A DNA stretch of 62,940 nt, counting the filler, from Reclinomonas americana ATCC 50394 (lineage: Eukaryota): the NCBI GenBank assembly GCA_048213135.1. It is 8 parts of 4 records of this genome, joined end to end, with 100 filler letters (N's around TTAATTAATTAA, not from the genome) between each part and the next. Parts side by side here need not be neighbours in the genome. Positions count along the whole stretch, not along the records: positions 47,864 to 48,994 come from PS015151.1; positions 49,095 to 57,367 come from PS015151.1; 6 more parts are not named here. One strand, given 5' to 3'. Of this stretch, positions 12,376 through 60,900 are shown piece by piece; position 1 is the stretch's first letter; each line of letters begins with the position of its first letter. The notes below the pieces were generated by a model. It did not search any database. It had not been told where the DNA came from and saw only the letters and a list, made by a program, of their open reading frames with translations. The translations under genes and the position numbers were made by a program.

Positions 12376-12439
12376 NNNNNNNNNNNNNNNNNNNNNNNNN
12401 NNNNNNNNNNNNNNNNNNNGAGAGAGAGAGAGAGCAAGC

Positions 12440-25656: not shown

Positions 25657-28387
<2,731 letters not shown>

Positions 28388-39583: not shown

Positions 39584-39804
39584 GGGTCGACGATTGAAGA
39601 AGGTGCTGGTGGTGTTATTGCATGCCTTGGCACGCGAAGTCAAAAGCGATTGCGAAAGTGAGCTGCAGAAAGCAGGCCATCGACACGCAGGTAGTATTCA
39701 GGCTGTCAGGGTGTGGCCACGCGCTGCCGAATCGAGCCGCCACAGTTGTCGACGAACAACTTCACGTGTCCGCCTTTCATATCACTTTCTTTCTCAGAGA
39801 GATC

Positions 39805-41520: not shown

Positions 41521-41796
41521 AGCGATCGGTGCGCGGCTGAGCTGGTCCTCTCTCGACGTCGCATTCGATCGAAGGCTTCCGCGGATTGTAGTATCGAATA
41601 CTGAAATCACTTCGACGTTCTCTTTGCTGGTGGTTGTACACTATGTCGTCGCAGTTGTCGGTCCGGCGATCACTTTACCGTAAGAGAGCGTGACTTCCCA
41701 TGTCCACCATGAACTGCGAGTTGTCCGAGTTGGAATGTCCTCTCTCGTACACCGACTCACACACACCATTGTCAGAGAGAGAGAGGGAAAGAAAAC

Positions 41797-44239
41797 ATGG
41801 GCATGGATGGAGATGTTTCTGGAGCACTGACCATCAGTCCGCCTCTCCCGCCCGACTTGGTGGCACTGTTCAATGACCAGGTGAAGTGCGCGCTTGGTCC
41901 CTGTTCTCCCTCTCCCTCTCCCTCACTCTCCCTCCATCTCTCTCTCTCTCTCTCTCTCTCTGCGCAGGCACGATGGATCCGTCGAACATTGTCGAGTCAG
42001 CTCACGAGTAAACTCGATATGTGGGTGGTAAGCCGCTCAGGAACGCGTCTCGCATGGGANNNNNNNNNNNNNNNNNNNNNNNNNNNNNNNNNNNNNNNNN
42101 NNNNNNNNNNNNNNNNNNNNNNNNNNNNNNNNNNNNNNNNNNNNNNNNNNNNNNNNNNNNNNNNNNNNNNNNNNNNNNNNNNNNNNNNNNNNNNNNNNNN
42201 NNNNNNNNNNNNNNNNNNNNNNNNNNNNNNNNNNNNNNNNNNNNNNNNNNNNNNNNNNNNNNNNNNNNNNNNNNNNNNNNNNNNNNNNNNNNNNNNNNNN
42301 NNNNNNNNNNNNNNNNNNNNNNNNNNNNNNNNNNNNNNNNNNNNNNNNNNNNNNNNNNNNNNNNNNNNNNNNNNNNNNNNNNNNNNNNNNNNNNNNNNNN
42401 NNNNNNNNNNNNNNNNNNNNNNNNNNNNNNNNNNNNNNNNNNNNNNNNNNNNNNNNNNNNNNNNNNNNNNNNNNNNNNNNNNNNNNNNNNNNNNNNNNNN
42501 NNNNNNNNNNNNNNNNNNNNNNNNNNNNNNNNNNNNNNNNNNNNNNNNNNNNNNNNNNNNNNNNNNNNNNNNNNNNNNNNNNNNNNNNNNNNNNNNNNNN
42601 NNNNNNNNNNNNNNNNNNNNNNNNNNNNNNNNNNNNNNNNNNNNNNNNNNNNNNNNNNNNNNNNNNNNNNNNNNNNNNNNNNNNNNNNNNNNNNNNNNNN
42701 NNNNNNNNNNNNNNNNNNNNNNNNNNNNNNNNNNNNNNNNNNNNNNNNNNNNNNNNNNNNNNNNNNNNNNNNNNNNNNNNNNNNNNNNNNNNNNNNNNNN
42801 NNNNNNNNNNNNNNNNNNNNNNNNNNNNNNNNNNNNNNNNNNNNNNNNNNNNNNNNNNNNNNNNNNNNNNNNNNNNNNNNNNNNNNNTGGATATGGAATG
42901 CGCAAGGCGGGATCCAGTCGCTTCCAGCCACTGGTTGATTACATTCGCTTCTTCTTTGCCCCGCTGGGACGCTTGCTCAGTGGCCGCATCGTCGCCCAAC
43001 CCCATGGGTCTGGCATGGCGTGTTGCGCGGAGGTGTGGGAGAACAAGTGGCCAAGTGACTGCCACTACAAAGGCTTCAGTGACGACCCCAAAGACGAGTT
43101 GTTTGACCTGATTGAGCCGGACGACTTCCGTGCACGACAGGTGGAGGAGTACCGCGTGGCGTACTGCCGTCGGAACGGGTTGTTGTGTCGTCGCCTGTGG
43201 AACGTCTGGCATGAGTATCTGGACGTCAAGGTGCGAGAGGATGGTGATGGAGAGCTCGCAGGTGAGGAGTTCACGTGCGAGGAACTGGCCAAGACGGCGG
43301 AGGAGGATGGATGTTGCGTGGCATTTTCTTGAATGTAGCAAAGCAAATCCAGGAGGCGATGCTGACCGGCACAGCGTGTGTGGCTTGGTGCAGATCCGTT
43401 GGACGTTTCCGGATATGGGTTCTGTGATGCATGTCTGGAGAAGTATCCGTCGATGTGGAGCGCCACGTCATGGTATCCTGAAGATGAGATGCCGGAGCAG
43501 GAGAGTTGCGAAGTGGGTTATCACGGGTCACTGTCCGTCAGCAGGCGAACCTGTTGCTGTTGCATGTTGAGTGCCAGAGATGGAGAGGAAGTATGATGAC
43601 CTCGATGTCTTTCTACTCGGTTGTTGAGTCTGATACTGGAAATGATCTCCACACTCACCGCGCTTTGGGTAATCCACAGATTACTCGTACCTCGTGTGGG
43701 AGGTGCTCTGCATTCGACACGCCATTGCCGTTCTCCAGCAGATGGCAGCTGACGACCTGGCGGAGGTGTCTGCTGGCGCCACTGCAGAGATGCTCGCAGG
43801 CTCAGTGGGAACTGAGCCGCTGCCACTCATGGTGTTGCGGTGCTTCCTGAAGGAAGAGGCGGAAGTGGTGGTGTTGCCACGTGCTCGAGCGAGTTTGGCG
43901 ATGTACGAGCCGCCGCTGTGCGAGGAACCGTTTGCACTGGACAGGCTGTATCGGGCAGTGGAGGAGCACGACATGTGGCATGCGGACATTGAGCGAGCAT
44001 GGCTGCAGCAGCTGGAAAAGCTGCATGCGAGTGGTTACGATGACTGGGAAGTCCTTGATACGATACAGAGGAAGTTTCTTGAAGAGTATCCACAGGTGAG
44101 TGGTGAGCGATGCGCCATTTTTTAAAGGAGAAGGCTGCTAATAATCTGTCGCCTGGTTCATGATCAGCACGCGGCAGCGGTGGCGGCGATGGTTCTTGTG
44201 GGCAATGACGACGACGACGACGATGATGATGAAAGATGA
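41797..44239 (+). CDS. Uncharacterised tandem family A, copy 2 (internal gap)
   Basis: Same motifs and exon structure as copy 1; ends VLVGNDDDDDDDDER*. Confidence 0.8.
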
Positions 44240-45119: not shown

Positions 45120-45163
<44 letters not shown>

Positions 45164-45181
45164 GAGAGAGAGAGAGAGAGC

Positions 45182-47060
45182 ATGGGTGTCGATGCGAATG
45201 TGTTTGGTGCGCTGACCATCAGCCCACCACTTCCACCAGACTTGGTGGCACTCTTCAACGCTCGAGTTGAGTGCTCACGTGATCTGTCATCCTCTCTCTC
45301 TCCCTCCTCCCCCCCTCCCGCTGTCTTCACGCGTCGTGACTCTCTCTTTCAATCCATCTCTTGCAGGCAGGATGGATTCGCACCGCGCTGTCGGACCAGC
45401 CTCCTTATCGCGAGTTCGACGAGTGGTTAGTGGACCGCTCAGGAACGCGTCTCTTCTGGCCCGGCAACATCAGCATGCGCAAACCNNNNNNNNNNNNNNN
45501 NNNNNNNNNNNNNNNNNNNNNNNNNNNNNNNNNNNNNNNNNNNNNNNNNNNNNNNNNNNNNNNNNNNNNNNNNNNNNNNNNNNNNNNNNNNNNNNNNNNN
45601 NNNNNNNNNNNNNNNNNNNNNNNNNNNNNNNNNNNNNNNNNNNNNNNNNNNNNNNNNNNGTGTCCGTGGCGCTTCAGACCACTGGTCAACTACATTCGCT
45701 TCTTCTTTGCCCCACTGGGTCGCTTGGTCAGTGGTCGCATCGTCGTCCAACCCGACAGCTACGAGTCTGGCTCGGCATACTGTGCGACAGTGTGGGAGAA
45801 CAAGTGGCCGAGAGACGACCACTACGAAGACCTCGCTGACGTCGACTACCCTGAGCCCCGAGACGACGAGCTTAATCTGATTGATTGGGACGACTTCCGT
45901 GCACGGCAAATGGAGGAGTATCGCGTGGCGTACTGCCGACGGAATGGGTTGTTGTGTCGTCGCCTGTGGAACGTCTGGCAAGAGTATTTGGACGCCAAAG
46001 TGCGAGAGGGTGATGATGATGATGAAGAGCTTCCCGGTGAAGAGTTCACGTGCGAGGAGCTGGTCGAGATGGCAGAGGAGGATGGATGTTGCGTGTCATG
46101 TTGGTTGTGGCGAGGCAGATGTGTTGTACATATTTGCTGATCGACACGGTCTGTGGCTTGTACAGATCCGACGCATGTTTATGATTTTGCCGTAGATGTT
46201 GACGATGAAGAGCTGTTGGGCAAGTATCCGTCGCTGTGGAGCGCCCAGTTATGGGGGCCTGAGGATGAGATGCCGGAGCAGGAGAGTTGCGAAGTGGGAT
46301 ATCACAGCTGTACAGACTACTGTTCGTGAGCAGACGATCTTCTTGCTGTTGTTTGTTGAGGAAAGTGTGAGAAATGGAGAGGAAAGATGGTGGCAGCGAT
46401 GCCCTTTTCATCAGTTGCTGAGTCCGATACTGATCAGAGATACTCACTGCACTGCTGATGATGCGCAGATTACTCGTACCTCGTGTGGGAGGTGCTTTGC
46501 ATTCGACACACCATTGCCGTTCTCCAGCAGATGGCTGACGACGTGCCAGAGGTGTCGGCGGGCGCAGCTGCAGAGATGCCCGCAAGCTCAGTGGGCGCTG
46601 AGCCGCTGCCACTCATGGTGTTGCGGTGCTTCTTGAAGGAGGAGGCGGAGATGGTGGTGCTGCCACGTGCTCGAGCGAGTCTGGTGATGTACGAGCCGCC
46701 GCTGTGCGAGGAGCCATTTGCACTGGACAGGCTGTATCGGGCAGTGGAGCAGCACGACATGTGGCACGCAGACATTGAGCGAGCGTGGTTGCTGCAGCTG
46801 GAACGGTTGCGCGCAGCTGGTAGTGATGATTGGGAGGACCGAAGGCTGCTTGAAGCGATGCAAGTGAATTTCCTCGCCGAGCATCCGCAGGTGAGTGGTG
46901 TAGATCTACTGTGTATGTGTAAACAAATCAGATGCTAACGACCAATCGCCGGGTGTAGTACACAAAGGCAAAGCGCGCTGAGTTTTGGCTGGGTGAGGGC
47001 GTGATGGTGGAGGCGGTGGCGGAGGTGGAGGAGGACGATGACGACGATGATGAAAGGTGA
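45182..47060 (+). CDS. Uncharacterised tandem family A, copy 3 (internal gap)
   Basis: Same motifs and exon structure; ends EVEEDDDDDDER*. Confidence 0.8.
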
Positions 47061-47079
47061 TTGAAGGCGATATGTGCGC

Positions 47080-47560
47080 TAGTTGCAGCTCTCGACGGCT
47101 TCTCTCGCGGCAGTGAGCATTTTCAGTTCGTAGATTCTGGGACGCCGTCGTCTCTGGTGCTCACTCAGATGGTGATTATCATGATTTGGGCGAAGAACGA
47201 GCAAAGTGCAGCTGTGCCGGCAGCTGTTTGTTGTCGTTGCATCGTTGTGAAATTGCCGAAGCTCAGAGATCAAGGGTCAAGGGGCTGCCATTCAAGCTCG
47301 GAGGTGTCGTCATTTGATTTCTGGATAGACTGATGATGGACATCCGCACAGTTGCTCCAATGTGTTCTGACACCACACCTCTTGCTATCTTTCTGCATTC
47401 CGTTTTGGAATTCGGCGTCAAATCCATGCTTGTCACGGGCCGTGGTTTCAAACTTCTCTTGCAGAAACGCCAGCATTTGCCATCTCGAGTTTTTCTCGTT
47501 TTTTTCGTGATGTCTGAGTTTCTGGTGATCACTCAAGATGGTGATCATTTTCTCACTGTG
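47080..47560 (-). pseudogene. Possible decayed hAT-like transposase fragment
   Basis: CGVRTHWSN (cf. DVxTRWNS) followed, across a frameshift, by ELEWQPLDP/LISELRQFHNDATTTNSCRHSCTLLVLRP (cf. EW..L..L...L.PF..AT...S....T). By-eye similarity only. Confidence 0.3.
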
Positions 47561-47863
47561 CGGCCACCGGTCAGTGGCTGTTGAAATCACTGCTGCGACA
47601 ACAATGACAACAACAACAACAACAACAACAACAACTGCGCCGACCGCCAGCCACCACCGATATGAGCCTCACCAACAACATGACAAGCTCTCTTGTGTGT
47701 TTCAACCACGTCACACCACCACTGTTTGCTTTTGCTTTGCTTGCTTCACGGATCCGGACGTCGNNNNNNNNNNNNNNNNNNNNNNNNNNNNNNNNNNNNN
47801 NNNNNNNTTAATTAATTAANNNNNNNNNNNNNNNNNNNNNNNNNNNNNNNNNNNNNNNNNNNN

Positions 47864-48166
47864 ATCCAACCGTCTCACTCCTTCTCCACTCTCCAGTGAC
47901 CACACTCGCACTGTGTTGTCAGAACTCCCACTCACGATGTGCTGGCCATCGGGAGTGACGGCAACAGAGTTCACATAACCCACGTGTCCCTTCAATCGTC
48001 GTACCTCAGCTCCAGTCGTCAGAGACCACACTCGCACTGTCTTGTCCCCACTTCCAGAGACGATGTGACGACAGTCGGGAGTGATGGCGACACATGTCAC
48101 AGGGCGAGTGTGACCAGTGATGCGCTTGGAGGGGAGGAGAGTGAGGGGAAAGGGAGTGGTGGACAT
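47864..48166 (-). CDS. WD40 tandem family, copy W1 (5' part only)
   Basis: [49 protein letters not shown]...; truncated by the contig end. Confidence 0.85.
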
Positions 48167-48299
48167 GAGGGATGTAGAGAAGAGAGCAGGGGGCAGAGAG
48201 AGAGAGAGAGAGAGAGAGGAGCAGGGAGGCAACAATCAGCGCGCCGGTCGTCGGGGTGTGTGTAGTGCGTGTGGCCCGCGTGTGACAAGAAGCGGGACC

Positions 48300-48440
48300 A
48301 GGACGATGGTCGACTTCGTCTTCCTCGCACACCACGCCCAGTCTTACCACAACGAACAGCAGCCTTGCCTTCGCTCATGTTGAATGCAGGTGCGTCAACC
48401 AGGTGCACAACATTCACTCTGGCTCATTACAAAAACATGA
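48300..48440 (-). promoter_or_regulatory. Conserved intergenic block upstream of each WD40 copy (also ~49360-49490, 51620-51708 with 52333-52385, ~53690-53740, 55985-56084 with 56354-56392)
   Basis: Plus-strand acttcgtc...ccacgccc.gtcttaccac.acgaacagcagccttgccttcgctca.gt.gaatgcaggtgcg.caaccaggtgc is shared between copies. A regulatory role is inferred from position only. Confidence 0.5.
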
Positions 48441-48475
48441 ATCAACATAACATCTAGCAATTGCTTCTCTTACTC

Positions 48476-48994
48476 TCACAAATGCGACTCCGGATCCATG
48501 CTGCGCCGGTGGAGAATAACCGCCGCCTCCTCCAAAATGAAGCAGCGCAGCACCATCTCTGGCAGGCACCGCGAATCCGGCTCTTCATCCACGACAGCTC
48601 CTCGCAGCATCTCCTGCACAGCCCGCATCGCCGCCCGTGCTGTATCAAGCTCAAACGCAGCGAGACCGCAGGGAGTGGACCACACTCGCAAAGTATTGTC
48701 ATAACCACCACTCACGACATGACAACCATCGGGAGACACGGCAACGGAGCCCACATATCCATCGTGGCCCTCCAGCTGTCGCACCTCTCCCCCACTTGCC
48801 AGTGACCACACTCGCACAATCGAGTCAACCCCGTCGCCTCCACTTACAACGTGCTCACCGTCAGGGGTGACGGAGACGAATAACAGGTTCTGAGTGTGTC
48901 CATCAAACCGTCGCACTTCTTCTCCTGTCGCCATTGACCACACCCTCACAGTCTCGTCTCCACTGCAACTCACAATGTGCTGACCATTGGGTGT
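48476..48994 (-). CDS. WD40 tandem family, copy W2 (3' part with conserved C-terminal module)
   Basis: Last blades, then STPCGLAAFELDTARAAMRAVQEM...CLPEMVLRCFILEEAAVILHRRSMDPESHL*. Confidence 0.9.
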   Translation of the reverse strand, partial: TPNGQHIVSCSGDETVRVWSMATGEEVRRFDGHTQNLLFVSVTPDGEHVVSGGDGVDSIVRVWSLASGGEVRQLEGHDGYVGSVAVSPDGCHVVSGGYDNTLRVWSTPCGLAAFELDTARAAMRAVQEMLRGAVVDEEPDSRCLPEMVLRCFILEEAAVILHRRSMDPESHL

Positions 48995-49094
48995 NNNNNN
49001 NNNNNNNNNNNNNNNNNNNNNNNNNNNNNNNNNNNNNNTTAATTAATTAANNNNNNNNNNNNNNNNNNNNNNNNNNNNNNNNNNNNNNNNNNNN

Positions 49095-49249
49095 GCTCCA
49101 GTTGCCAAAGACCACACCCGCACTGTCTTGTCTGTGCTCCCAGATACGATGTGCTGACCATCGGGAGTGACGGCGACACACGTCACAGGGCCCGTGTGAC
49201 CAGTGATGCAGTAGGAGGGAAGGAGGAGGGGAGAGGGAGAGCAGGACAT
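49095..49249 (-). CDS. WD40 tandem family, copy W3 (5' part; may be the N-terminus of W2)
   Basis: [51 protein letters not shown]. Confidence 0.8.
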
Positions 49250-49554
49250 GAGGAAGGGAGGGGAGGGAGACCAGAAGGCAGAGAAGAAGAGAGAGAGGCA
49301 AGTCAACTCTGCGGTGTGTGCGGAACGGTTGGTCAAGTCAGTCAATACTCGGGACGAGGACGATGGTTGACTTCGTCTTCCTCGCACACCCACACCCTGT
49401 TTTACCACGACGAACAGCCTTGCCTTCGCTCACGTAGAATGCAGGTGCGCCAACCAGGTGCGCAACATTCACTTTGGCTCATCACAAAAAACACGAACCG
49501 ACAAACAAAAGGCAACTCTTTGACTCTCTGTCTCTCTCATCCCTCTCTCAGCTT

Positions 49555-51493
49555 TCACAAGTGCGACTCCGGGTCCACGCTGCGCCGATGTAGAACTACC
49601 GCCGCCTCCTCCACAATGAAGCAGCGCAGCACCATCTCTGGCAGGCACCGCGAATCCGATTCTTCATCTTCGTCAGCCACGGCTTCCCGCTGCATCTCCT
49701 GCACGGCCCGCATCGCCGCTCGTGCTGTATCGAGCTCGAAAGCAGCAAGGCCACAAGGAGTGGACCACACTCGTACAGTCCTGTCATGACCAACGCTCAC
49801 AACATGCCGACCATCGGGAGTCACGGCAACAGAGCCCACATATCCAGCGTGTCCCTTCAACTGTCGCACCTCTCTTCCACTGGCCAATGACCACAGTCGC
49901 ACAATCGGGTCAGCAGCATTGCCTCCACTTACAACGTGCTCACCGTCGGGGGTGACGGAGGCGAATAACAGGTTCTGAGTGTGTCCATCAAACCGCTGCA
50001 CTTCTTCTCCTGTCGCCATTGACCACACTCTCACAGTCTTGTCTAAGCTGCAACTCACAATGTGCTGGCCATTGGGTGTAACGGCAACCGACCACAGCCA
50101 ACTTCTATGCCCGTCCATCCAGCGCACTTCTGCACCATTCTCCAGTGACCACACCCGCACAGTCTTGTCATTGCTTCCGCTGACAACGTGGAGACCATCC
50201 GGCGGGATGGCGACAGAGTTCACTCCCCCAGTGTGCCCCTCCATTCGTCGCACCTCCTCTCCACTCTCCAGTGACCACACGAGCACAGTTTTGTCCTCAC
50301 TTCCACTCACAACGAGCTGACCGTCGGGAGTGATGGCGACAGATTCCACTTGCTTAGTGTGGCCCCTCAACAGATGCACTCCTTCTCCACTCTTCAGTGA
50401 CCACACTCGCACTGTGTAGTCAGAACTGCCACTCACGATGTGCTGGCCATTGGGAGTGACAGCAACAGAGTTCACATAACCCTCATGTCCCTTCAGTCGT
50501 CGCACCTCAGCTCCAGTCACCAGAGACCACACTCGCACTGTGCAGTCTGTACTCCCAGATNNNNNNNNNNNNNNNNNNNNNNNNNNNNNNNNNNNNNNNN
50601 NNNNNNNNNNNNNNNNNNNNNNNNNNNNNNNNNNNNNNNNNNNNNNNNNNNNNNNNNNNNNNNNNNNNNNNNNNNNNNNNNNNNNNNNNNNNNNNNNNNN
50701 NNNNNNNNNNNNNNNNNNNNNNNNNNNNNNNNNNNNNNNNNNNNNNNNNNNNNNNNNNNNNNNNNNNNNNNNNNNNNNNNNNNNNNNNNNNNNNNNNNNN
50801 NNNNNNNNNNNNNNNNNNNNNNNNNNNNNNNNNNNNNNNNNNNNNNNNNNNNNNNNNNNNNNNNNNNNNNNNNNNNNNNNNNNNNNNNNNNNNNNNNNNN
50901 NNNNNNNNNNNNNNNNNNNNNNNNNNNNNNNNNNNNNNNNNNNNNNNNNNNNNNNNNNNNNNNNNNNNNNNNNNNNNNNNNNNNNNNNNNNNNNNNNNNN
51001 NNNNNNNNNNNNNNNNNNNNNNNNNNNNNNNNNNNNNNNNNNNNNNNNNNNNNNNNNNNNNNNNNNNNNNNNNNNNNNNNNNNNNNNNNNNNNNNNNNNN
51101 NNNNNNNNNNNNNNNNNNNNNNNNNNNNNNNNNNNNNNNNNNNNNNNNNNNNNNNNNNNNNNNNNNNNNNNNNNNNNNNNNNNNNNNNNNNNNNNNNNNN
51201 NNNNNNNNNNNNNNNNNNNNNNNNNNNNNNNNNNNNNNNNNNNNNNNNNNNNNNNNNNNNNNNNNNNNNNNNNNNNNNNNNNNNNNNNNNNNNNNNNNNN
51301 NNNNNNNNNNNNNNNNNNNNNNNNNNNNNNNNNNNNNNNNNNNNNNNNNNNNNNNNNNNNNNNNNNNNNNNNNNNNNNNNNNNNNNNNNACGATGTGCTC
51401 ACCATCGGGAGTGACGGCGACACACGTCACAGGGCCCGTGTGACCAGTGATGCACTTGGAGAAAAAGAGAAGGGGAGAGGGTGACAGGGACAT
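49555..51493 (-). CDS. WD40 tandem family, copy W4 (internal gap)
   Basis: Seven visible GH...VWS blades plus the C-terminal module; no introns seen. Confidence 0.9.
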
Positions 51494-52445
51494 GATCAGG
51501 GGAGAGAGGAGATCAGGGAGCAGGGAGAGAGAGAGAGAGAGAGAGAGAGTGAGAGGAGTGAGGGTCAACAATCACGTATGTGTGCGCGACTCATTCGTGT
51601 TTGAAGACGCCGGACCAGGACGCCGATGGTTAACTTCGTCATCCAAGCAAACCACGCCCTGTCTTATCACGACGAACAGCAGCCTTGCCTTCGCTCATGT
51701 CGAATGCATNNNNNNNNNNNNNNNNNNNNNNNNNNNNNNNNNNNNNNNNNNNNNNNNNNNNNNNNNNNNNNNNNNNNNNNNNNNNNNNNNNNNNNNNNNN
51801 NNNNNNNNNNNNNNNNNNNNNNNNNNNNNNNNNNNNNNNNNNNNNNNNNNNNNNNNNNNNNNNNNNNNNNNNNNNNNNNNNNNNNNNNNNNNNNNNNNNN
51901 NNNNNNNNNNNNNNNNNNNNNNNNNNNNNNNNNNNNNNNNNNNNNNNNNNNNNNNNNNNNNNNNNNNNNNNNNNNNNNNNNNNNNNNNNNNNNNNNNNNN
52001 NNNNNNNNNNNNNNNNNNNNNNNNNNNNNNNNNNNNNNNNNNNNNNNNNNNNNNNNNNNNNNNNNNNNNNNNNNNNNNNNNNNNNNNNNNNNNNNNNNNN
52101 NNNNNNNNNNNNNNNNNNNNNNNNNNNNNNNNNNNNNNNNNNNNNNNNNNNNNNNNNNNNNNNNNNNNNNNNNNNNNNNNNNNNNNNNNNNNNNNNNNNN
52201 NNNNNNNNNNNNNNNNNNNNNNNNNNNNNNNNNNNNNNNNNNNNNNNNNNNNNNNNNNNNNNNNNNNNNNNNNNNNNNNNNNNNNNNNNNNNNNNNNNNN
52301 NNNNNNNNNNNNNNNNNNNNNNNNNNNNNNNNGCGCAGGTGCGCCAACCAGGTGCATATCATTCACTTCAGCTCGTCACAAAACCAACAAAACAATAACA
52401 TGCAATCAAACAATTTCGTTGTCTCACTCTCATCCCTCCCATTAT

Positions 52446-53561
52446 TCACAAGTGCGACTTCGGCTCAACGCTGCGCCGATACAGCACCACCGCCGCCTCC
52501 TCCACAATGAAGCACCGCAGCACCATCTCTGGCAGGCACCGCGAATCCGGCTCTTCATCCGGATCCACGACAGCTCCTCGCAGCATCTCCTGCACGGCCC
52601 GCATCGCCGTTTGTGCTGTGTAGAGCTCAAACACAGCGAGGCCACTAATGGTGGACCACAATCGCACAGACCTGTCATACATGCCACTCCCGATCACAAT
52701 GTGGTGACCATCGGGAGTGACGGCAACTGACAGCACAGAGTCAGTGAGTTCCAGTCGCCGCGACTCCTCTCCACTCGCCAGTGACCACACTCGCACAGTG
52801 GCATCAATGCCGCCGCTTACGATGTGCTGGCCGTCGGGAGCAACGGCGACACATCGCACACAGCCGACGTGGCCCACCAAGCGTAGAATTTCTTCGCCGC
52901 TCTCCAGCGACCACACCCGCACTGTCCGATCGTCACCCCCGCTCACAGCGTGTTGACTGTCGACAGTGACGGCAACCGATCGCACCCGACCTTCATGTCC
53001 CTCCAACTGCCGCACTTGCTTTCCTGTGGCCAGGGACCACACCCGCACGGTGTTGTCCAGACTCCCACTCACGACGCGACGACCATCGGGAGTGATGGCG
53101 ACAGAACTTACTCCGTCCGTGTGTTGTTTGAGCTGTTGAACCTCCTGTCCATTCCCCAAAGACCACACTCGCACTGTCTTGTCTTGACTCCCACTGACAA
53201 CATGCAGACTGTCAGGTGTGACAGCCACAGTCAAAACCATCGCAGTGTGGCCCCGAAAGTGCCGCACTTCACCACTCGCCAGTGACCGCACGCACACCTT
53301 GGTGTCGACGCTGCCGCACACGATGTACTGACCGTCGGGAGTGACGACCACAGAATTCACGTGACCCATGAGACACTCCAAGTGCTGCACCTCTCCTCCT
53401 CCTCCTCCACTTGTCACGGGCCACACACCAACGAAATTGTCAGCACTCCCACTCACAACGCGCTGACCGTCAGGAGTTACCGTGACACATCGCACAGACC
53501 TATCGTGCTGAGCAAGTTGCTTGGAGGGGAGGAGGAAGAGGGGAGAGGGAGCGAGGGACAT
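52446..53561 (-). CDS. WD40 tandem family, copy W5 (complete, 371 aa, 7 blades, most divergent)
   Basis: Uninterrupted ORF MSLAPSPLFLLPSK... with 7 WD40 repeats, ending CLPEMVLRCFIVEEAAVVLYRRSVEPKSHL*. Confidence 0.93.
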   Translation of the reverse strand: MSLAPSPLFLLPSKQLAQHDRSVRCVTVTPDGQRVVSGSADNFVGVWPVTSGGGGGEVQHLECLMGHVNSVVVTPDGQYIVCGSVDTKVCVRSLASGEVRHFRGHTAMVLTVAVTPDSLHVVSGSQDKTVRVWSLGNGQEVQQLKQHTDGVSSVAITPDGRRVVSGSLDNTVRVWSLATGKQVRQLEGHEGRVRSVAVTVDSQHAVSGGDDRTVRVWSLESGEEILRLVGHVGCVRCVAVAPDGQHIVSGGIDATVRVWSLASGEESRRLELTDSVLSVAVTPDGHHIVIGSGMYDRSVRLWSTISGLAVFELYTAQTAMRAVQEMLRGAVVDPDEEPDSRCLPEMVLRCFIVEEAAVVLYRRSVEPKSHL

Positions 53562-53915
53562 GAGGAAGGGAGAGCAGGGAGAGGGGGAGGAAGGTAACAC
53601 TCAGCGCGCCAGTTGTCGGGTGGGGAAAAGGTTGACGACGCGGGACAACGACGATTAGCGGATTTTGGCAATTCCTTGCGCTTTTCACGTGCGTCACCAC
53701 AACGAACAAAACAGCCTTGGCCGTGCTCACATCGAATACAGCTTCACTCAGGGTCGACAACCACCAGGCCTAGGCACAACACGTTCAAATTTGTCGAAGT
53801 CTGCGAAACCCAATCAACAAAACACAGCAAATCTTTCTCTTATCTCTTTCTCTCTGTCCCTCGCACCAAGCTGAAAAGTACAATTCTTTCTTCCTTCTCT
53901 CATTCCTCTCTCTCC

Positions 53916-55863
53916 TCACAAGTGCGACTCCGGATCCATGCTGCGCCGGTGCAGCACAAGCGCCGCTTCCTCCACAATGAAGCACCGCAGCACAATCTCC
54001 GACAGGCACCAACAATCTGACTCGTCGTCATCGTCTTCGTCGTCAGTACTCTCTTCTAGCTGCATCTCCTGCACGGCTCGCATTGCCTCACGTGCTGCGC
54101 CCAACTCACACGCAGCGAGGCCACAAGGAGTGGACCACACTCGTACAGTTCTGTCATAACCACCACTCACAACATGCCGACCATCGGGAGTGACGGCAAC
54201 AGAGCCCACGTATCCATCGTGTCCCTTCAACTGTCGGACCTCTCTTCCACTGGCCAGTGACCATACTCGCACAATCGGGTCAGAAATGTTGCCCCCACTC
54301 ACAACGTGCTTACCGTCGGGGGTGACGCAGACGTGCATCGTGTCACAAGTATGTCCTTTAAACCGTCGCACTTCCTTGCCAGTCGTCATTGACCACACTC
54401 TCATAGTCTTGTCGTGACTGCAACTCACAACGTGCTGACCATCGGGTGTAATGGCAACCGACCACACAAAACCTTCGTGTCCTTCGAACCTTCGCACTTC
54501 AGCGCCATTCTCCAGTGACCACACCCGCACAGTATTATCATTGCTTCCGCTGACAACGTAGAGACCATCCGACGTGATGGCGACAGAGTTCACCCACCAA
54601 GTGTGTCCCACCAGTCGTCTCACCTCCTTCCCCCTCGCCTGTGACCACACAATCATTATCTTGTCTCTGCCCCCGCTGACAAGGTGAACCCCGTCGGGAG
54701 TGATGGCCACAGATTTCACTCCCGCAGTGTGTCCCTCCAGCCGTCGCACTTCTTCTCCACTCTCCAGTGACCACACTCGCACAGTGTGATCAGCACTGCC
54801 ACTCACGATGTGTCGTCCATCGGGAGTGACGGCAACAGCGGNNNNNNNNNNNNNNNNNNNNNNNNNNNNNNNNNNNNNNNNNNNNNNNNNNNNNNNNNNN
54901 NNNNNNNNNNNNNNNNNNNNNNNNNNNNNNNNNNNNNNNNNNNNNNNNNNNNNNNNNNNNNNNNNNNNNNNNNNNNNNNNNNNNNNNNNNNNNNNNNNNN
55001 NNNNNNNNNNNNNNNNNNNNNNNNNNNNNNNNNNNNNNNNNNNNNNNNNNNNNNNNNNNNNNNNNNNNNNNNNNNNNNNNNNNNNNNNNNNNNNNNNNNN
55101 NNNNNNNNNNNNNNNNNNNNNNNNNNNNNNNNNNNNNNNNNNNNNNNNNNNNNNNNNNNNNNNNNNNNNNNNNNNNNNNNNNNNNNNNNNNNNNNNNNNN
55201 NNNNNNNNNNNNNNNNNNNNNNNNNNNNNNNNNNNNNNNNNNNNNNNNNNNNNNNNNNNNNNNNNNNNNNNNNNNNNNNNNNNNNNNNNNNNNNNNNNNN
55301 NNNNNNNNNNNNNNNNNNNNNNNNNNNNNNNNNNNNNNNNNNNNNNNNNNNNNNNNNNNNNNNNNNNNNNNNNNNNNNNNNNNNNNNNNNNNNNNNNNNN
55401 NNNNNNNNNNNNNNNNNNNNNNNNNNNNNNNNNNNNNNNNNNNNNNNNNNNNNNNNNNNNNNNNNNNNNNNNNNNNNNNNNNNNNNNNNNNNNNNNNNNN
55501 NNNNNNNNNNNNNNNNNNNNNNNNNNNNNNNNNNNNNNNNNNNNNNNNNNNNNNNNNNNNNNNNNNNNNNNNNNNNNNNNNNNNNNNNNNNNNNNNNNNN
55601 NNNNNNNNNNNNNNNNNNNNNNNNNNNNNNNNNNNNNNNNNNNNNNNNNNNNNNNNNNNNNNNNNNTTCACATAATGCGCGCGGCCTTCCAGTCGTCGCA
55701 CCTCAGCTCCGGTCGCCAGTGACCACACGCGCACTGTCCTGTCTTCACTCCCAGAGATTATGTGCTCACCATTGGGAGTGATGGCGACACAAGTCACTGA
55801 GCCAGTGTGACCAGTGATGCGCTTGGAGAGCAGGAGGAAGAGTGGAGAGGGAGCCAGGGACAT
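53916..55863 (-). CDS. WD40 tandem family, copy W6 (internal gap)
   Basis: Same architecture; C-terminus CWCLSEIVLRCFIVEEAALVLHRRSMDPESHL*. Confidence 0.9.
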
Positions 55864-56448
55864 GAGAAAGGGAGAGAGCAGGGAGAGAGAGAAGAGCAGG
55901 GAGGGACAGAAGAGAGGGGGAACAATCAACTCGCAAGTCGTCGGGGTGCGTGAGCGTGTGTTGACGCCGGACCAGGACGCCGCAATGGTCGACTTCGTCA
56001 TCCAAGCATACCACGCCCTGTCTTACCACGACGAACAGCAGCCTTGCCTTCGCTCACGTAGAATGCAGGTGCGCCAACCAGGTGNNNNNNNNNNNNNNNN
56101 NNNNNNNNNNNNNNNNNNNNNNNNNNNNNNNNNNNNNNNNNNNNNNNNNNNNNNNNNNNNNNNNNNNNNNNNNNNNNNNNNNNNNNNNNNNNNNNNNNNN
56201 NNNNNNNNNNNNNNNNNNNNNNNNNNNNNNNNNNNNNNNNNNNNNNNNNNNNNNNNNNNNNNNNNNNNNNNNNNNNNNNNNNNNNNNNNNNNNNNNNNNN
56301 NNNNNNNNNNNNNNNNNNNNNNNNNNNNNNNNNNNNNNNNNNNNNNNNNNNNNCACAATATTCACTTGATGGCTCATCACAAAAACATGAAACAACAACA
56401 TGCAATCAAACAATTCGAATTCGTTCACTCTCTCATCCCTTCCATTAT

Positions 56449-57367
56449 TCACAAGTGCGACTCGGGTTCCATGCTGCGCCGGTACAGCACCACCACCGCC
56501 TCCTCCACAATGAAGCAGCGCAACACAATCTCCGCCAGACACCAACAATCTGGCTCATCGTCGTCTTCGTCAACCACAGCTTCTCGCTGCATATCCTGCA
56601 CAGCCAACATTGTCTTGCGTGCGGCGCCCAACTCAAACACAGCGAGGCCGCAGGGAGTGGACCACACTCGCAAAGTATTGTCATTGCTACCACTCACAAC
56701 ATGCCGACCATCGGGAGTCACGACAACAGACCGCACTCCCCCAGTGTGCCCCTCCAGCTGCTGCACCTCTCTTCCACTGACCAGTGACCACACTCGCACA
56801 ATCGGGTCCGCAGCATTGCCTCCACTCACAACGTGCTCACCATCGGGGGTGACGGAGACGAATAACAGGCTCTGAGTGTTTCCGTCAAACCGTCGCACTT
56901 CTTCTCGTGTAGCCATTGACCACACTCTCATTGTCTCGGCGGAACTGCAACTCACAATGTGCTGACCATCGGGCGTAATGGCAACCGACAGCACCCAACC
57001 TCTATGCCCGTCGAACCGGTGCACTTGTGCTCCACTCTCCAGCGACCACACTCGCACTGTATTGTCGCCACTACCGCTGACAACGAAGAGACCACCCGGC
57101 GTGACGGCGACAGACGTCACTCCCCCAGTGTGCCTCTCCATTCGTCGTACCTCCTCTCCACTCGCCAGTGACCACACACGCACTGTCGCATCCCAACTCC
57201 CGCTGACAACGTGCTCCCCATCGGGAGTGATGGCAACAGACCCCACTTCATCAGTGTGGCCCTTCAACTGCCGCACTTCTTGTCCACTCTCCAGTGACCA
57301 CACGCGCACTGCGCAGTCAGAACTCCCACTCACGATGTGCTGCCCATCAGGAGTGACGGCGACTGAG
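56449..57367 (-). CDS. WD40 tandem family, copy W7 (5'-partial)
   Basis: Six visible blades plus CWCLAEIVLRCFIVEEAVVVLYRRSMEPESHL*. Confidence 0.9.
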
Positions 57368-57929
57368 NNNNNNNNNNNNNNNNNNNNNNNNNNNNNNNNN
57401 NNNNNNNNNNNTTAATTAATTAANNNNNNNNNNNNNNNNNNNNNNNNNNNNNNNNNNNNNNNNNNNNGAGGTGGGGAAGGGGAGGGGAAGGGGATTAGAA
57501 GGGGAGGGAGAGAAGGGTGAAGGGAGAAGAGAGGAGAGGAGAGAGGAGAGAGGAGAGAGGAAGAGGGAGAGGGAGAGCGAGAGGGAGAGGATGAGGATGA
57601 GGGAGAGGAAGAGGGAGAGGGAGAGCGAGAGGGAGAGGAGAGGAGAGGAGAGGAGAGGAAAGGAGAGGAGAGGAGAGGAGAGGAGAGGAGAGGAGAGGAA
57701 GCGAAGGAGGGGAAGGAGAGGAGAGAGAAGGAGAGGAGAGGAGAGGAGAAGAGGAGATGAAAAGACAACAGAAGAGACGAGAAATAAGAGAAAAAGGGAG
57801 GAGAGTAGATGACAATGTCGATACAGGGTTTAAGAACGAGCACGCAGAAGTCGAGAGGGAGCAGAGACACACAAAGGGAACTCGCTAACGAGGTCAACGT
57901 CAACAACAATCAATGGTGCCATTACAAAC

Positions 57930-60900
57930 CTGGACTTCACACCAGTCACCACAATGTCGTGTTCCACAATCCTCGGCACGTGCGACTCCTTAGTGTCTGC
58001 ACCACGAGTGGAGGTGAGAACACCCAACTGCGTCGCAGCTCCGACAGCCGTTCACACGACTCACCAATCAATTTGACATCGTCGAATCCCTTGCTGCGAA
58101 TGGCGGCCATCACTTGCTCCGGGTCCCAAGTGAACTTGTGTGCACAAAGCGAAACCGTGTGCAAATCCTCCGACGCGCTGACCTTGCGCACGCCCGGCAG
58201 CACGCGCACGGCATCGACGACGTTCTTGGCGGCGCGCCTGGGGGGAAGGAAGATGAGAAGGAGGAATGAAAAGGGGGACAACGGACTGCAAAGACGGTCT
58301 GGAGGTGCGAAGGATACAAAGAGAGATAAAGAGGGAGGGAAAGAGGGATTGAGAAAAGAGCCACGCGCGACGATTCAACAAAGAGAGAGAGAGAGAAAGT
58401 GAAAGAGAAATGTTGCGCAGAGGCAGGAGGAGGCAAAGGACTATCGCGTGACGAAGCGATACGTATGACAAACAAAATGATCCGTCGCGACCACATGCAT
58501 CAAAAAAGAAAGTACAGAACAAGCTGAAAATGCTTGGAGGACTGAGAAGAAAAGTGAGGACGTGGAGAAAAAACAAGGAAGACCTCAGCAGTTACTTCGC
58601 GTTACTCGGATGACAGATACCCACATACATCAAGAGGTGAGAAAAGAAGAAGATGATGTGATGATGAGGAAGAGAGGGGAAGAAGAGCAACTCTCTCTTC
58701 AAGAAAAGAGAGACTCTCTTCTCCTCAACAAAAGAGAAGCACTCTCTTAAAGTGAGAAAGAGCAAGTTGAAAATGATTAGAGGACGGATAAGCAACGAAA
58801 GGACGCGGAGAACAACAAGGACCAACGCATGACGAACAGTAAACTACTTGTCTCGGTTCTCGGATGACATCGACAGATACCCTTGTCTCTCCACCACACC
58901 CTTCCCCAAACCCTTCCCCACTTTCACCCGCCACGCAACTTTGTCTTCAACCCAGCCACCAAGAACACATGATGCACTTCGTCCTCGCCCGGCGTAAACT
59001 CCGCCTGCTGCTGCAGCTGTGCAACAGTGGCCGCCGACAATGTCGACGACGATGAAGAGGAGGAAGGAGGTGCGCCACCACCACTCGTCCCCTGCGCATG
59101 TGGCTTCTCAGAGGGCGCATCGTCGTGCTTGTCTTTCTTGAACGTGTCGTTGAACTTGTTCTTCAGCTTGGAGAACAGCGACTTGGTGCCCTGCATTGGC
59201 GGGTGAGTGAGCGATGAGCTCCATCTCAACCGCCGCCGCCTCCAACCACGACAAACCTTGCCAAACGCCTTCATCTTGTCCTTCATCTTCTCACCGAATC
59301 CCTTCCTGTCGCCCTCGTTAATGTCCTCCGCATACTCCTCCTCGTGCACGACTGGCGCAGACGGACCACCCCTGGTGGCCGGCTGCTGCTGCTGCTCGAG
59401 GGTGGAGAAGAGGCGGGAGTTGCCTGTGCCAGGTCGAGTGAGTGAGAGGGAAGAGCAGCGAATGAAGATGCGAGATCTCACCAGCAGGCTTGCCGCCACT
59501 CGGCGGAGCGGGTGCTTGCGGTGGTCGCGATCCAGCTTGCGATGGCGACGTTCCGAGCGCTGAAAACAGCTTGCTGTTCCCTGCATTTGCTTTGCGAGTG
59601 AGCACGCAACACACACGTCGCTGGCCAACAACAACACGCAACTGCTGCCGGAAGCAGCCGACGATGAACCCTGTCAAATATGCACGAAGGTGAGCCACAC
59701 AGCAATGGCGAGATAACCTTGCTTCCCCACATCCCCCCTCACCTGCGGCTGACCACTACCACCCGCCGCCGCGCGCAGCTCCGACGCCTTCTCCGACAAC
59801 TGACGCGCAATGCGCTCAAACAGACCCTCCGGTGCTCCACTCGAGTGCCGATCCACACGCTCACGAATCCACACCTCAAACATTTGCATGTCGCTAAAGT
59901 GCGACAGGAACTGCGCATAAGTGCCGCCGAGTCAAAATCACTCAGGGCGTCATTATGAGCACCCTTCACGACAAGCAGCGCACCTGCCGTCCAGGCTCCA
60001 ACTGCGAGCTAATGAGCTGGTCCACATCCAAGCGAAGAGCGCCCGACTGCGCTTTGCTAAAATACAATTGGAANNNNNNNNNNNNNNNNNNNNNNNNNNN
60101 NNNNNNNNNNNNNNNNNTTAATTAATTAANNNNNNNNNNNNNNNNNNNNNNNNNNNNNNNNNNNNNNNNNNNNAGGGCAAATACACATTTCTCATTCCTC
60201 AGTTGCTTGTGCTCGTTCTTAAAACCTGTATCGAAATTGTCATCTACTCTCCTCTCCATTTCTCGCATCTTCTCCTCTCCTCTCCTCTCTCTCTCCCTCC
60301 TCCTGCCTCTCCTCTCTTCTCTTCTCCTTCTCTCTCTCTCTCCCTCTCCCTCCCCCTCTTCCCTCCTCGAACAACACAACGGAAGAGTACAATAACGCAC
60401 AACAGTGCACAGACACGGGTACAGCACGACACAACACGGAGCGATGCAGTACAAACCAAGACGAGTTCTCGCTCCTCATGCAGTAATTCCCACAGAAATA
60501 GCAAGCGCTCTATCGACGGCTCAACGGTAGTGCACAACAAGTGTAGCGAAGAAAACGTGAGACCGCACAAAAACAGATGTCACTCTCTCACATACAACCA
60601 ATGATTCCACAGAAACAAATACAGTCACAAAAGGCACAAAACGAAACAAAGCCATCGTCCCTCATAATGCGCGCTCTCAATTCCACTCGATCACTACCCT
60701 GCACATCAGCAAGGCACAGCACGCGAAGACGCGGCACGAAAATCTCCCAATCGTTTGCTCCACTACACTCTACCGCAGACACAAACATTAACGCTCTCAC
60801 AAAGTCAAACATGCCACGCCACACCACTGAATCTCTTTCCTTGTGCACACTCTCGATCACTGCGCAGCACATTTGCAAGACGCAGACCCTCATACTCTTT

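What the first reader, a model, noticed from the sequence alone, without database searches (positions are those of the whole stretch)
47864..57367. Intronless WD40 gene array with constant scaffold and hypervariable top-face residues
Seen: 6-7 head-to-tail genes in an otherwise intron-rich genome. The 42-aa blades have a near-constant frame (GH..V.SVAVTPDG.H.VSGS.D.TVRVWSL..G.EVRRL). The residues after GH vary strongly: TGPVT, EGYVN, TKQVE, TAGVK, TDEVG, TWWVN, RSWLW, EGFVW, RGWVL, TQNLL, TCDTM. The residue before D in SGSxD also varies. Established: these are top-face ligand-binding positions of WD40 propellers, the region that diversifies in fungal HET-D/HET-E non-self receptors. Inference: a diversifying recognition repertoire, here without a NACHT domain and with the small C-terminal module instead. 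Lack of introns suggests retroposition or lateral origin.
Basis: partly seen in the sequence, partly recalled or inferred. Interest (0 to 1): 0.72.

Follow-up and report, generated by a model that had tools for sequence, protein, structure and literature searches.

The report
Tandem WD40 genes with variable binding faces
A cluster of at least six neighbouring genes encodes near-identical seven-bladed propeller proteins that differ mainly at the residues such propellers use to bind partners, so it looks like a small family of binders with different specificities, though what they bind is unknown.

Summary
On the minus strand of 47864-57367 lie 6 (at most 9) head-to-tail paralogous genes. Each encodes a 14-residue leader, seven 42-residue WD40 blades and a conserved tail of about 69 residues. 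Only one copy (53561-52446) is fully sequenced. The rest are cut by N gaps and by three artificial six-frame-stop linkers, which show the region is two concatenated scaffolds.

Variation peaks at blade positions 5, 7, 23 and 25 (G of GH = 1). These are the four codons reported under positive selection in fungal HET-D/E repeats. In my own codon model they give omega 2.2, against 0.31 for the rest (p about 1e-6). This result depends on assuming one synonymous rate for the whole gene.

The array is not a HET-D/E-type system. It has no NACHT domain. Blades within a gene are only 57% identical. Blades group by position, not by gene, so there is no blade shuffling.

The tail matches no Pfam family and is under purifying selection (omega 0.25). 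Its core also occurs in the last exon of a second tandem gene family on the neighbouring scaffold.

A retroposed or lateral origin is neither supported nor refuted. Verdict: a real, moderately interesting new variant of a known kind. Its function is inferred only.

The parts
56449..57367 (-). g1: paralog cut at its 5' end by the linker. Blades 2-7, tail and stop (305 codons readable).
55669..55863 (-). g2 N-terminal piece: ATG, leader, blade 1 and the start of blade 2. Ends at N gap 54842-55666.
53916..54839 (-). g2 C-terminal piece: rest of blade 2 to blade 7, tail and stop.
52446..53561 (-). g3: the only complete gene. 371 codons plus stop, made of a leader, 7 blades and a tail. It is the most divergent paralog.
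51392..51493 (-). g4 N-terminal piece: ATG, leader and first half of blade 1. Ends at N gap 50561-51389.
49555..50559 (-). g4 C-terminal piece: second half of blade 1 to blade 7, tail and stop.
49097..49249 (-). g5N: ATG, leader and blade 1, at the low end of scaffold 49095-57367.
48476..48994 (-). g5C: blade 5 to tail and stop, at the high end of scaffold 47864-48994. It may or may not be the same gene as g5N.
47864..48166 (-). g6: ATG, leader and blades 1-2, cut by the linker.
52449..52655 (-). Tail of g3 (69 residues). In the model it forms two helices, residues 310-330 and 342-365, at low confidence. The other tails are at 56452-56661, 53919-54134, 49558-49764 and 48479-48679.
48167..48475 (-). 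Intergenic spacer (309 bp). It is homologous to the spacers before g2, g3, g4 and g5, with a conserved block followed by a C/T-rich tract that runs into the ATG.
48995..49094 (.). Artificial linker (44 N + TTAATTAATTAA + 44 N) joining two scaffolds inside the array. Identical linkers lie at 47764-47863 and 57368-57467.
43682..43963 (+). Last-exon segment of 'family B' that holds the module shared with the WD40 tails. Other copies lie at 40952-41230 and 46471-46749. This is on the neighbouring scaffold 36484-47763.

Best explanation
This is a lineage-restricted, tandemly duplicated family of small stand-alone WD40 adaptor proteins, built as a variable binding face on a constant scaffold with a constant tail.

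Shown:
- Each gene encodes a seven-bladed propeller with a short leader and a conserved two-helix tail.
- All readable copies have intact frames.
- The scaffold and the tail are under purifying selection.
- Differences between paralogs are concentrated at four positions per blade. These flank the D-A and B-C connections, giving 28 residues around the top opening of the propeller.

Shown with caveats:
- These 28 codons change amino acid about twice as fast as the gene-wide synonymous rate.

Inferred:
- The top face is the ligand-binding surface, as in other WD40 propellers.
- Each paralog therefore recognises a different peptide or protein.
- The invariant tail docks all of them to one common partner or complex. 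That partner is possibly also used by the neighbouring family B, which carries the same core motif.

Diversity arises by whole-gene tandem duplication followed by point substitution at the face. Occasional gene conversion homogenises the constant parts. Blades are not shuffled. In working terms this resembles the expanded substrate-adaptor families of ubiquitin ligases, which pair a variable binding domain with a constant docking box, more than it resembles an NLR.
For: Architecture and colinearity of the 6 paralogs.

Fold: the g3 model has mean pLDDT 88.6, with 7 four-stranded blades and two C-terminal helices. The best Foldseek hits are bacterial repetitive and designed WD40 propellers: 5yzv (E 4e-31, 40% identity), 7big and 2ymu.

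Variation: entropy and between-paralog difference peak at positions 23, 5, 7 and 25.

Codon model (my own GY94 maximum-likelihood implementation):
- omega is 2.19 for the 28 hot codons, 1.36 for positions 3-4 and 0.31 for the remaining 329 codons.
- The likelihood-ratio test of omega_hot = 1 gives 2dlnL 24.2, p 9e-7.
- Without g3: omega 2.23, p 2e-5.
- With g5N masked: omega 2.28, p 5e-7.
- By position, omega is 3.76 (position 23), 1.86 (25), 1.78 (5) and 1.78 (7). The bottom-face loop positions 16, 33, 34 and 36 give 0.71, and the tail 0.25.

Local synonymous rate: codon pairs that encode the same residue differ in 10 of 42 hot pairs and in 212 of 987 scaffold pairs. This gives no sign of a locally raised synonymous rate.

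Composition: W/Y/F/H make up 21 of 123 hot residues, against 111 of 1199 elsewhere in the blades.

M2a against M1a: 2dlnL 13.4, p 0.0012.

Tail:
- All 5 of 5 sequenced tails are conserved.
- BLASTP of a tail against family B gives E 1e-6, with 21 of 51 residues identical.
- A distant full-length relative, P0123, keeps the tail at 27% overall identity.

Gene conversion: the tail tree groups (g3,g5,g4) against (g1,g2) with 99% support, whereas g3 sits on a long branch in the WD region. g3 and g5C share a run of 26 polymorphic sites in the tail, permutation p 0.001.
Against: - No ligand, partner, expression or population data exist, so binding and function are inferred from the fold alone.
- If the hot class is given its own rate multiplier, omega falls to 0.82 (all six copies) or 1.09 (without g3). 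Neither differs from 1, and that model fits better by 2dlnL of about 11.
- Pairwise Nei-Gojobori omega for a wider class of 44 top-face codons is about 0.9-1.1.
- M2a places only 1% of sites in the omega > 1 class. Only 2 sites exceed posterior 0.8, and one of them is in the leader.
- There are only 4-6 sequences per column. The tree is star-like and poorly supported. Gene conversion is present and can inflate such tests.
- The codon models are my own implementation, not PAML or HyPhy.
- The assembly is fragmentary.
- The tail matches no docking-domain family in Pfam at E up to 1.
Confidence: 0.55

Rival explanations
1. Relaxed constraint only. The copies are redundant duplicates whose surface loop residues drift neutrally. 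The pattern would then reflect the general tolerance of WD40 top-face positions, not selection for new specificities.
For: - omega is about 1 at the hot codons when they are given their own rate, and in pairwise Nei-Gojobori estimates.
- M1a puts 41% of all sites at omega = 1, and overall omega is 0.42.
- Hu et al. 2017 report variable hotspot positions as a general trait of repetitive WD40 proteins (passages of PMC5587647).
Against: - With a shared synonymous rate, omega is 2.2-2.3 and differs significantly from 1 in three data sets.
- Same-residue codon pairs show no local excess of synonymous change.
- Bottom-face loops, which are equally exposed, give omega 0.71.
- All readable frames are intact, and the scaffold and tail are constrained.
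- Aromatic residues and His are enriched at the hot positions.
Confidence: 0.25
2. A HET-D/E-like non-self receptor system that works as in fungi. Highly conserved repeats would be shuffled within and between genes to create new specificities that trigger a response.
For: The same four codon positions are the most variable and have the highest omega. The genes are clustered paralogs, and some gene conversion is detected.
Against: - There is no NACHT or effector domain and no room for one.
- Blades within a gene are 57% identical at the protein level and 63% at the DNA level, against about 85% in the fungal genes (passages of PMC4986451).
- For 25 of 25 blades of g1, g2, g4, g5 and g6, the nearest neighbour is the same-numbered blade of another gene. 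Blades are therefore older than the gene duplications and are not exchanged.
- Every copy that can be counted has 7 blades.
Confidence: 0.08
3. An assembly artefact: the copies are alleles, haplotigs or duplicated contigs of one or two genes.
For: The region is two concatenated scaffolds with four internal N gaps. Two gaps of 825-829 N sit where only 1-2 codons are missing, so the gap sizes are unreliable.
Against: - Pairwise synonymous divergence is 0.22-0.45 among five copies and 0.63-0.92 to g3.
- Spacers are only 47-77% identical.
- Five different N-termini and five different C-termini overlap one another in the alignment and differ.
- g2, g3 and the spacer between them lie on one uninterrupted stretch, 52333-54841.
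Confidence: 0.03
4. On origin (not exclusive of the readings above): the founder gene came from a bacterium, or from a retroposed mRNA, which would explain the lack of introns.
For: - The scaffold type (SVAVTPDG...VSGSxDxTVRVW) is that of the closest database hits, which include cyanobacterial and many metagenomic proteins.
- The closest solved structures are bacterial repetitive WD40s.
- GC3 of the WD genes is 0.58-0.64, against 0.64-0.86 in eight other coding pieces of the window.
Against: - The best identities are only 46-55% over the WD part, and 42-43% in prokaryote genomes (8 loci). Fungal proteins score alike.
- Consensus-like repeats converge, so similarity is a weak guide to descent.
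- The copies share spacers, so they duplicated as DNA.
- A 27%-identical relative with degenerate blades and the same tail points to a long history of this architecture.
- No poly(A) remnant or target-site duplication was looked for.
Confidence: 0.2

Closest known systems
Podospora anserina HET-D/HET-E/HNWD NACHT-WD40 receptors (Paoletti et al. 2007, PMC1805685; Dyrka et al. 2014, PMC4986451)
   Same: Both have 42-residue WD40 repeats with a constant frame. The same four positions are the variable, positively selected ones: their codons 7, 9, 25 and 27 are my positions 5, 7, 23 and 25. Both are clustered or multigene families, and both show exchange between paralogs.
   Different: Here there is no NACHT or HET domain. 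Internal repeat identity is 57%, not about 85%. Blades are position-specific and not shuffled. The blade number is fixed at 7. Diversity lies between whole-gene paralogs. There is an extra conserved C-terminal tail.
Repetitive prokaryotic WD40 proteins (Hu et al. 2017, PMC5587647; structures 5yzv and 2ymu)
   Same: Both share the consensus-like scaffold with variable hotspot positions. These are the best sequence and fold matches. By their measure, internal identity is 0.44-0.50 for g2, g3 and g4, which is their 'moderately repetitive' class.
   Different: The array falls below their 0.7 cut-off for 'highly repetitive'. It has a single 7-blade domain, where many of theirs are multi-domain proteins. 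It lies in a eukaryotic scaffold, as a tandem gene array, with a tail of its own.
Expanded substrate-adaptor families of cullin ubiquitin ligases: F-box, MATH-BTB and WD40-SOCS-box proteins. The adaptive evolution described by Thomas 2006 is recalled; only its title phrase was seen, in reference lists found.
   Same: The logic matches: lineage-specific tandem expansion, a variable and positively selected binding domain, and a short constant docking motif.
   Different: No F-box, BTB or SOCS-box signature is present. The tail gives 0 Pfam families at E up to 1. This is a resemblance in logic only.
Fungal NLR/effector gene pairs that share a short signalling motif (for example NWD2/HET-S; recalled, not read here)
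   Same: A short motif of about 45 residues is shared between a WD40 protein and a different protein family encoded next to it.
   Different: Here the motif is C-terminal on the WD40 protein and is predicted to be helical. There is no NOD domain. Adjacency runs across an artificial linker. No interaction has been shown.

Membership tests
WD40 repeat beta-propeller (Pfam PF00400) | Several WD40 repeats recognised by the profile | tested here: met
   PF00400 gives E 7.3e-65 with 7 stretches in g3. All 5 of 5 proteins scanned match.
WD40 repeat beta-propeller (Pfam PF00400) | Closed propeller of four-stranded blades | tested here: met
   The AlphaFold2 model has pLDDT 88.6 and 7 blades. Foldseek TM-scores normalised to the target are 0.94-0.96 against 7-bladed WD40 structures.
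Highly-Repetitive WD40 (Hu et al. 2017) | At least six repeats with all pairwise identities of 0.7 or more | tested here: not met
   The values are 0.38 (g1), 0.50 (g2), 0.44 (g3) and 0.48 (g4). g2, g3 and g4 meet the 0.4 cut-off for 'moderately repetitive'.
Fungal HNWD / highly internally conserved NLR | NACHT (NOD) domain N-terminal to the repeats | tested here: not met
   Only WD40-type Pfam families are found. A conserved ATG lies 17 codons before the GH of blade 1 in 5 of 5 sequenced 5' ends. Spacers are 306-355 bp.
Fungal HNWD / highly internally conserved NLR | Repeats within a gene about 85% identical | tested here: not met
   Mean identity is 57% at the protein level and 63% at the DNA level over 82 within-gene blade pairs.
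Fungal HNWD / highly internally conserved NLR | Concerted evolution: repeats cluster by gene and are exchanged | tested here: not met
   For 27 of 32 blades the nearest neighbour is the same-numbered blade of another gene. This holds for 25 of 25 blades outside g3.
Fungal HNWD / highly internally conserved NLR | Positive selection at the four top-face codons | tested here: inconclusive
   With a shared synonymous rate, omega is 2.2-2.3 at p below 1e-4. With a class-specific rate, omega is about 1.
Fungal HNWD / highly internally conserved NLR | Repeat-number polymorphism between individuals | not testable with these tools
   There is one assembly only. All countable copies have 7 blades.
SOCS-box / F-box type E3 adaptor | Recognisable docking box | tested here: not met
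   The tail and the family B segments give 0 Pfam families at E up to 1.
Peroxisomal PTS1 cargo | C-terminal tripeptide of the [SAC][KRH][LM] type (consensus recalled) | tested here: inconclusive
   All 5 of 5 tails in the window end in SHL. The two relatives end in MYL and DLR, and the residues just upstream are acidic.

The most novel reading that the evidence does not exclude
A two-component recognition system without a NOD domain. A repertoire of stand-alone WD40 sensors with diversifying top faces would be coupled to the neighbouring family B proteins through the conserved module of about 45 residues (core LP.MVLRCF..EEA.VV) that both carry. The family B proteins would act as effectors or adaptors. 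The shared module would act as a homotypic docking element, as death-fold domains do in animals or shared amyloid motifs do in fungal NLR/effector pairs.
Probability: 0.1. Interest if true: 0.8.

Novelty: new variant of a known kind. Interest (0 to 1): 0.5.

Why it matters
Repetitive WD40 propellers with hypervariable binding positions are so far known as the sensor parts of fungal NLR-type receptors and of bacterial STAND-like proteins. There, diversity is made by shuffling near-identical repeats.

This array shows the same four positions per blade diversifying in a different genetic format. The units are whole small genes duplicated in tandem, with no nucleotide-binding domain and with a tail of their own that is under purifying selection.

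If the paralogs bind different targets, the locus would be a compact natural set of propeller binders on one scaffold. It would also be a candidate recognition or adaptor system in a poorly studied eukaryote. The shared tail motif gives a concrete handle for finding the partner.

Tried and rejected
- RNA evidence: no RNA holder was listed. Contigs of four runs covered only the 3' part of g3 and told nothing about expression, ends or introns.
- Complex prediction of the family B last-exon segment with a WD40 tail gave no answer, so there is no verdict either way.
The sources of P0121 and P0123 are therefore unknown.
- Searching the tail region among proteins of 204-650 residues scored none of 78 candidates.
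- The tail profile run against 1.84 billion representative proteins gave 3 hits. Two are credible (P0121, a 116-residue fragment, and P0123, 394 residues). One (P0122) is a low-complexity repeat protein that I discard.
- The metagenome scan with the tail gave 150 pattern matches, none confirmed. The viral scans with a whole copy and with the tail gave 1 and 67 pattern matches, none confirmed. These pattern scans are insensitive.
- The ESM Atlas gave no usable hit for the tail. For family B exon 2 it gave only scores of 0.80-0.86, below the useful range.
- The fold of family B exon 2 came out at pLDDT 37.8 and is unusable.
- Upstream-exon model: the spacers hold a conserved block ending in a GTAAGA-like site, and the leader is a C/T-rich stretch with no AG until just before blade 1. 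This looks like an intron end. However, joining the two would leave the WD frame without a start codon, whereas an in-frame ATG is conserved in 5 of 5 copies. I therefore keep the ATG as the start. Only RNA data can settle this.
- PTS1 reading of the terminal SHL: kept only as a note.
- Lineage of the organism: the proteasome alpha-4 exon is at most 62-69% identical to land-plant, Capsaspora and fungal orthologues alike. That search was restricted to proteins longer than 270 residues. The best PDB chain is 7qve_j. The lineage is not resolved.
- No genome is held for this window, so the family size genome-wide is unknown.
- One search was an empty script.

Full report
WHAT IS THERE

The window is a gap-rich draft of a eukaryote. 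It has 28 N runs covering 7261 of 62940 bases. No whole genome is held for it, and this scan has no earlier notes on it.

Seven of the N blocks have the form 44 N + TTAATTAATTAA + 44 N. This 12-mer puts a stop codon in all six frames. I read it, from general knowledge, as the artificial linker used to concatenate separately assembled scaffolds.

The finding's coordinates are simply the inner edges of two such linkers, and a third lies inside the region at 48995-49094. The array therefore consists of scaffold Sa (47864-48994) and scaffold Sb (49095-57367). Sb also contains four ordinary N gaps.

The two scaffolds carry the same family in the same orientation, and they fit colinearly. This argues that their order is not arbitrary, but sequence does not prove it.

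All WD40 coding sequence is on the minus strand. I reconstructed six colinear paralogs, g1 to g6. Each has three parts:
- A 14-residue Ser/Pro/Leu-rich leader starting at a conserved in-frame ATG, followed by 2 more residues before the GH of blade 1.
- Seven 42-residue blades.
- A tail of 67-72 residues, followed by the stop codon.

Only g3 (53561-52446, 371 codons) is complete.

In g2 and g4, N gaps of 825 and 829 bases sit where only 2 and 1 codons are missing from a seven-blade protein. Either the gap sizes are wrong or the flanking pieces belong to different genes. Together with the linker between g5N and g5C, this puts the gene count between 6 and 9.

Where the spacers are sequenced they are 306-355 bp, and g2 and g3 lie 1470 bp apart stop to stop. 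Spacers are homologous between copies: 62-77% identical among g2, g4, g5 and g6, and 47-60% to g3. The unit of duplication was therefore gene plus spacer.

IS IT MORE THAN CHANCE, AND IS IT AN ARTEFACT?

Pfam WD40 matches are overwhelming. The AlphaFold2 model of g3 is a confident seven-bladed propeller with mean pLDDT 88.6 and values above 95 in the blades. The closest solved structures are bacterial repetitive and designed WD40 propellers: 5yzv, 7big and 2ymu.

The copies are not alleles or assembly duplicates, for three reasons:
- Nei-Gojobori dS is 0.22-0.45 among g1, g2, g4, g5 and g6, and 0.63-0.92 to g3.
- Overlapping pieces differ throughout.
- g2's 3' part, a spacer and all of g3 lie on one uninterrupted stretch.

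THE VARIABLE POSITIONS

I number blade positions with the G of GH as 1. Over 32 blades, entropy is highest at positions 23 (3.72 bits), 5 (3.45), 7 (3.02) and 25 (3.00). Many scaffold positions are near 0.2 bits.

The same positions differ most between paralogs at the same blade: 0.84, 0.72, 0.67 and 0.74 of pairs respectively. Position 42, at 0.76, is comparable.

In the g3 model:
- Position 5 is the last loop residue before strand A.
- Position 7 is the second residue of strand A.
- Positions 23 and 25 bracket the invariant Asp of the B-C turn.

By established knowledge of the fold, the D-A and B-C connections form the top, ligand-binding face of WD40 propellers.

Paoletti et al. 2007 found codons 7, 9, 25 and 27 of the HET-D/E repeat under strong positive selection, flanking the constrained codons 8 and 26. 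I read this in passages of PMC1805685. With their register two ahead of mine, these are exactly my positions 5, 7, 23 and 25.

Hu et al. 2017 note that hotspot positions are variable in repetitive WD40s generally (passages of PMC5587647).

SELECTION TESTS (MY OWN IMPLEMENTATIONS; NO PAML OR HYPHY ON HAND)

I fitted a GY94/F3x4 model on a fixed six-taxon tree with three a-priori site classes.

Class estimates and the main test:
- omega is 2.19 for the 28 hot codons, 1.36 for positions 3-4 and 0.31 for the other 329 codons.
- Fixing omega_hot at 1 costs 2dlnL = 24.2, p 9e-7.
- Without g3: omega 2.23, p 2e-5.
- With g5N masked: omega 2.28, p 5e-7.

Position by position:
- omega exceeds 1 at positions 23 (3.76), 25 (1.86), 5 (1.78), 7 (1.78), 4 (1.68), 3 (1.16) and 42 (1.15).
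- Bottom-face loop positions give 0.71, the tail 0.25 and the leader 0.66.

Evidence against positive selection:
- When the hot class gets its own rate multiplier, omega drops to 0.82 or 1.09, neither different from 1. The multiplier is 2.1-2.6, and this model fits better.
- Pairwise Nei-Gojobori omega for a 44-codon top-face class is about 1.
- M2a beats M1a (2dlnL 13.4, p 0.0012), but through a 1% class with omega 21. Only two sites have posterior above 0.8, and one of them is in the leader.

In favour of the shared-rate reading, codon pairs that keep the same residue differ synonymously as often at hot codons (10 of 42) as in the scaffold (212 of 987). There is thus no direct sign of a raised local mutation rate.

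My conclusion is that the face evolves at least neutrally and probably faster, while everything else is constrained. Positive selection is likely but not secure.

HOW THE DIVERSITY IS ORGANISED

Identity between blades:

| Comparison | Pairs | Protein identity | DNA identity |
|---|---|---|---|
| Blades within one gene | 82 | 57% | 63% |
| Same-numbered blade between genes, without g3 | 33 | 79% | 83% |

For 25 of 25 blades outside g3, the nearest neighbour is the same-numbered blade of another gene. Counting g3 as well, this holds for 27 of 32 blades.

The seven blades are therefore older than the gene duplications and are not being shuffled. This is the opposite of the HNWD genes, whose repeats are about 85% identical, cluster by gene and vary in number (passages of PMC1805685 and PMC4986451).

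By the measure of Hu et al., internal identity is 0.38-0.50. That is 'moderately repetitive', below their 0.7 cut-off.

Gene conversion does occur, but in the constant part:
- The tail tree groups (g3,g5,g4) against (g1,g2) with 99% support, and g3's branch there is short. In the WD region g3 sits on a long branch.
- g3 and g5C share a run of 26 polymorphic sites in the tail, permutation p 0.001, uncorrected for 10 pairs.

THE TAIL AND THE NEIGHBOURS

The tail is predicted as two helices, residues 310-330 and 342-365, at low confidence (pLDDT 54-78). It has no Pfam match and no Atlas hit.

Its core recurs in the last sequenced exon of a second, intron-bearing tandem family, which I call family B. 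Family B has three copies on the plus strand at about 39.7-47.0 kb, on the neighbouring scaffold and convergent with the WD40 genes. BLASTP between a tail and family B gives E 1e-6, and 13 alignment columns are invariant over all eight sequences. Family B itself has no Pfam match.

A profile of the eight modules was run against 1.84 billion representative proteins. It found only two credible relatives:
- P0121, a 116-residue fragment of a close family member.
- P0123, a 394-residue protein that aligns end to end with g3 at 27% identity and keeps the tail.

The propeller-plus-tail architecture is thus older than this array and narrowly distributed.

ORIGIN

The closest database proteins cover only the WD part, about 79% of the query, at 46-55% identity. 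They are metagenomic, cyanobacterial and fungal. In prokaryote genomes, 8 loci were confirmed, the best at 42-43% identity.

GC3 of the WD genes (0.58-0.64) is at the low end of the coding pieces in the window.

None of this decides between lateral transfer, retroposition and vertical descent. The tandem copies themselves arose by DNA duplication.

VERDICT

The HET-D/E analogy holds for which positions vary, but not for domain architecture or for the mechanism that generates diversity.

The best reading is a small family of adaptor-like propellers with diversified binding faces and a constant docking tail (confidence 0.55). The main rival is plain relaxed constraint (0.25).

Function, partners and expression are unknown, and the assembly limits every count.

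Noticed in passing
12320-12419, 25498-25597, 36384-36483, 47764-47863, 48995-49094, 57368-57467, 60074-60173: Seven identical blocks of 44 N + TTAATTAATTAA + 44 N, with a stop in all six frames. The window is a pseudomolecule of at least eight concatenated scaffolds, so adjacency across these points is not established by sequence.
   Followed up: yes
39700-47000, plus strand: A second tandem family ('family B', three copies) with several exons. It has no Pfam match, and its last sequenced exon shares the core motif of the WD40 tails. Exon 2 is highly conserved between copies, for example in the segment YIRFFFAPLGRL. The fold prediction failed (pLDDT 37.8).
   Followed up: partly
48167-48475, 49250-49554, 51494-51709, 53562-53915, 55864-56084 (minus strand): The spacers share a conserved block of about 60 bases ending in a GTAAGA-like site, 140-200 bases upstream of each ATG. 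A long C/T-rich tract follows and continues into the leader codons. This may be a promoter or 5'UTR element, or a small untranslated exon with an intron.
   Followed up: partly
50561-51389 and 54842-55666; also 42060-42887: Three N gaps of nearly the same length (829, 825 and 828 bases). The two inside the WD40 genes sit where only 1-2 codons are missing. The gap lengths look like a library-size default rather than measurements, or they hide whole extra copies.
   Followed up: partly
stop-proximal codons of g1-g5 (56452, 53919, 52449, 49558, 48479): All five sequenced tails end in Ser-His-Leu, a tripeptide of the peroxisomal PTS1 type (consensus recalled). The two outside relatives do not end this way, and the residues upstream are acidic.
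   Followed up: partly
7066-8001 (minus), 2576-4113 (plus), 25550-26443 (minus), 10919-11734 (plus): Ordinary housekeeping-type exons lie elsewhere in the window. One is a proteasome alpha-4 subunit exon, confirmed against PDB. By my reading of the ORF translations only, there are also a cyclic-nucleotide-binding channel-like ORF, a glutamate-dehydrogenase-like ORF and an unrelated WD40 ORF.
   Followed up: partly
52362-53175: A contig of one public run matches g3's 3' part at about 95% identity with two small indels. A contig of a second run matches at 99%. These may come from a related strain or from another copy.
   Followed up: no
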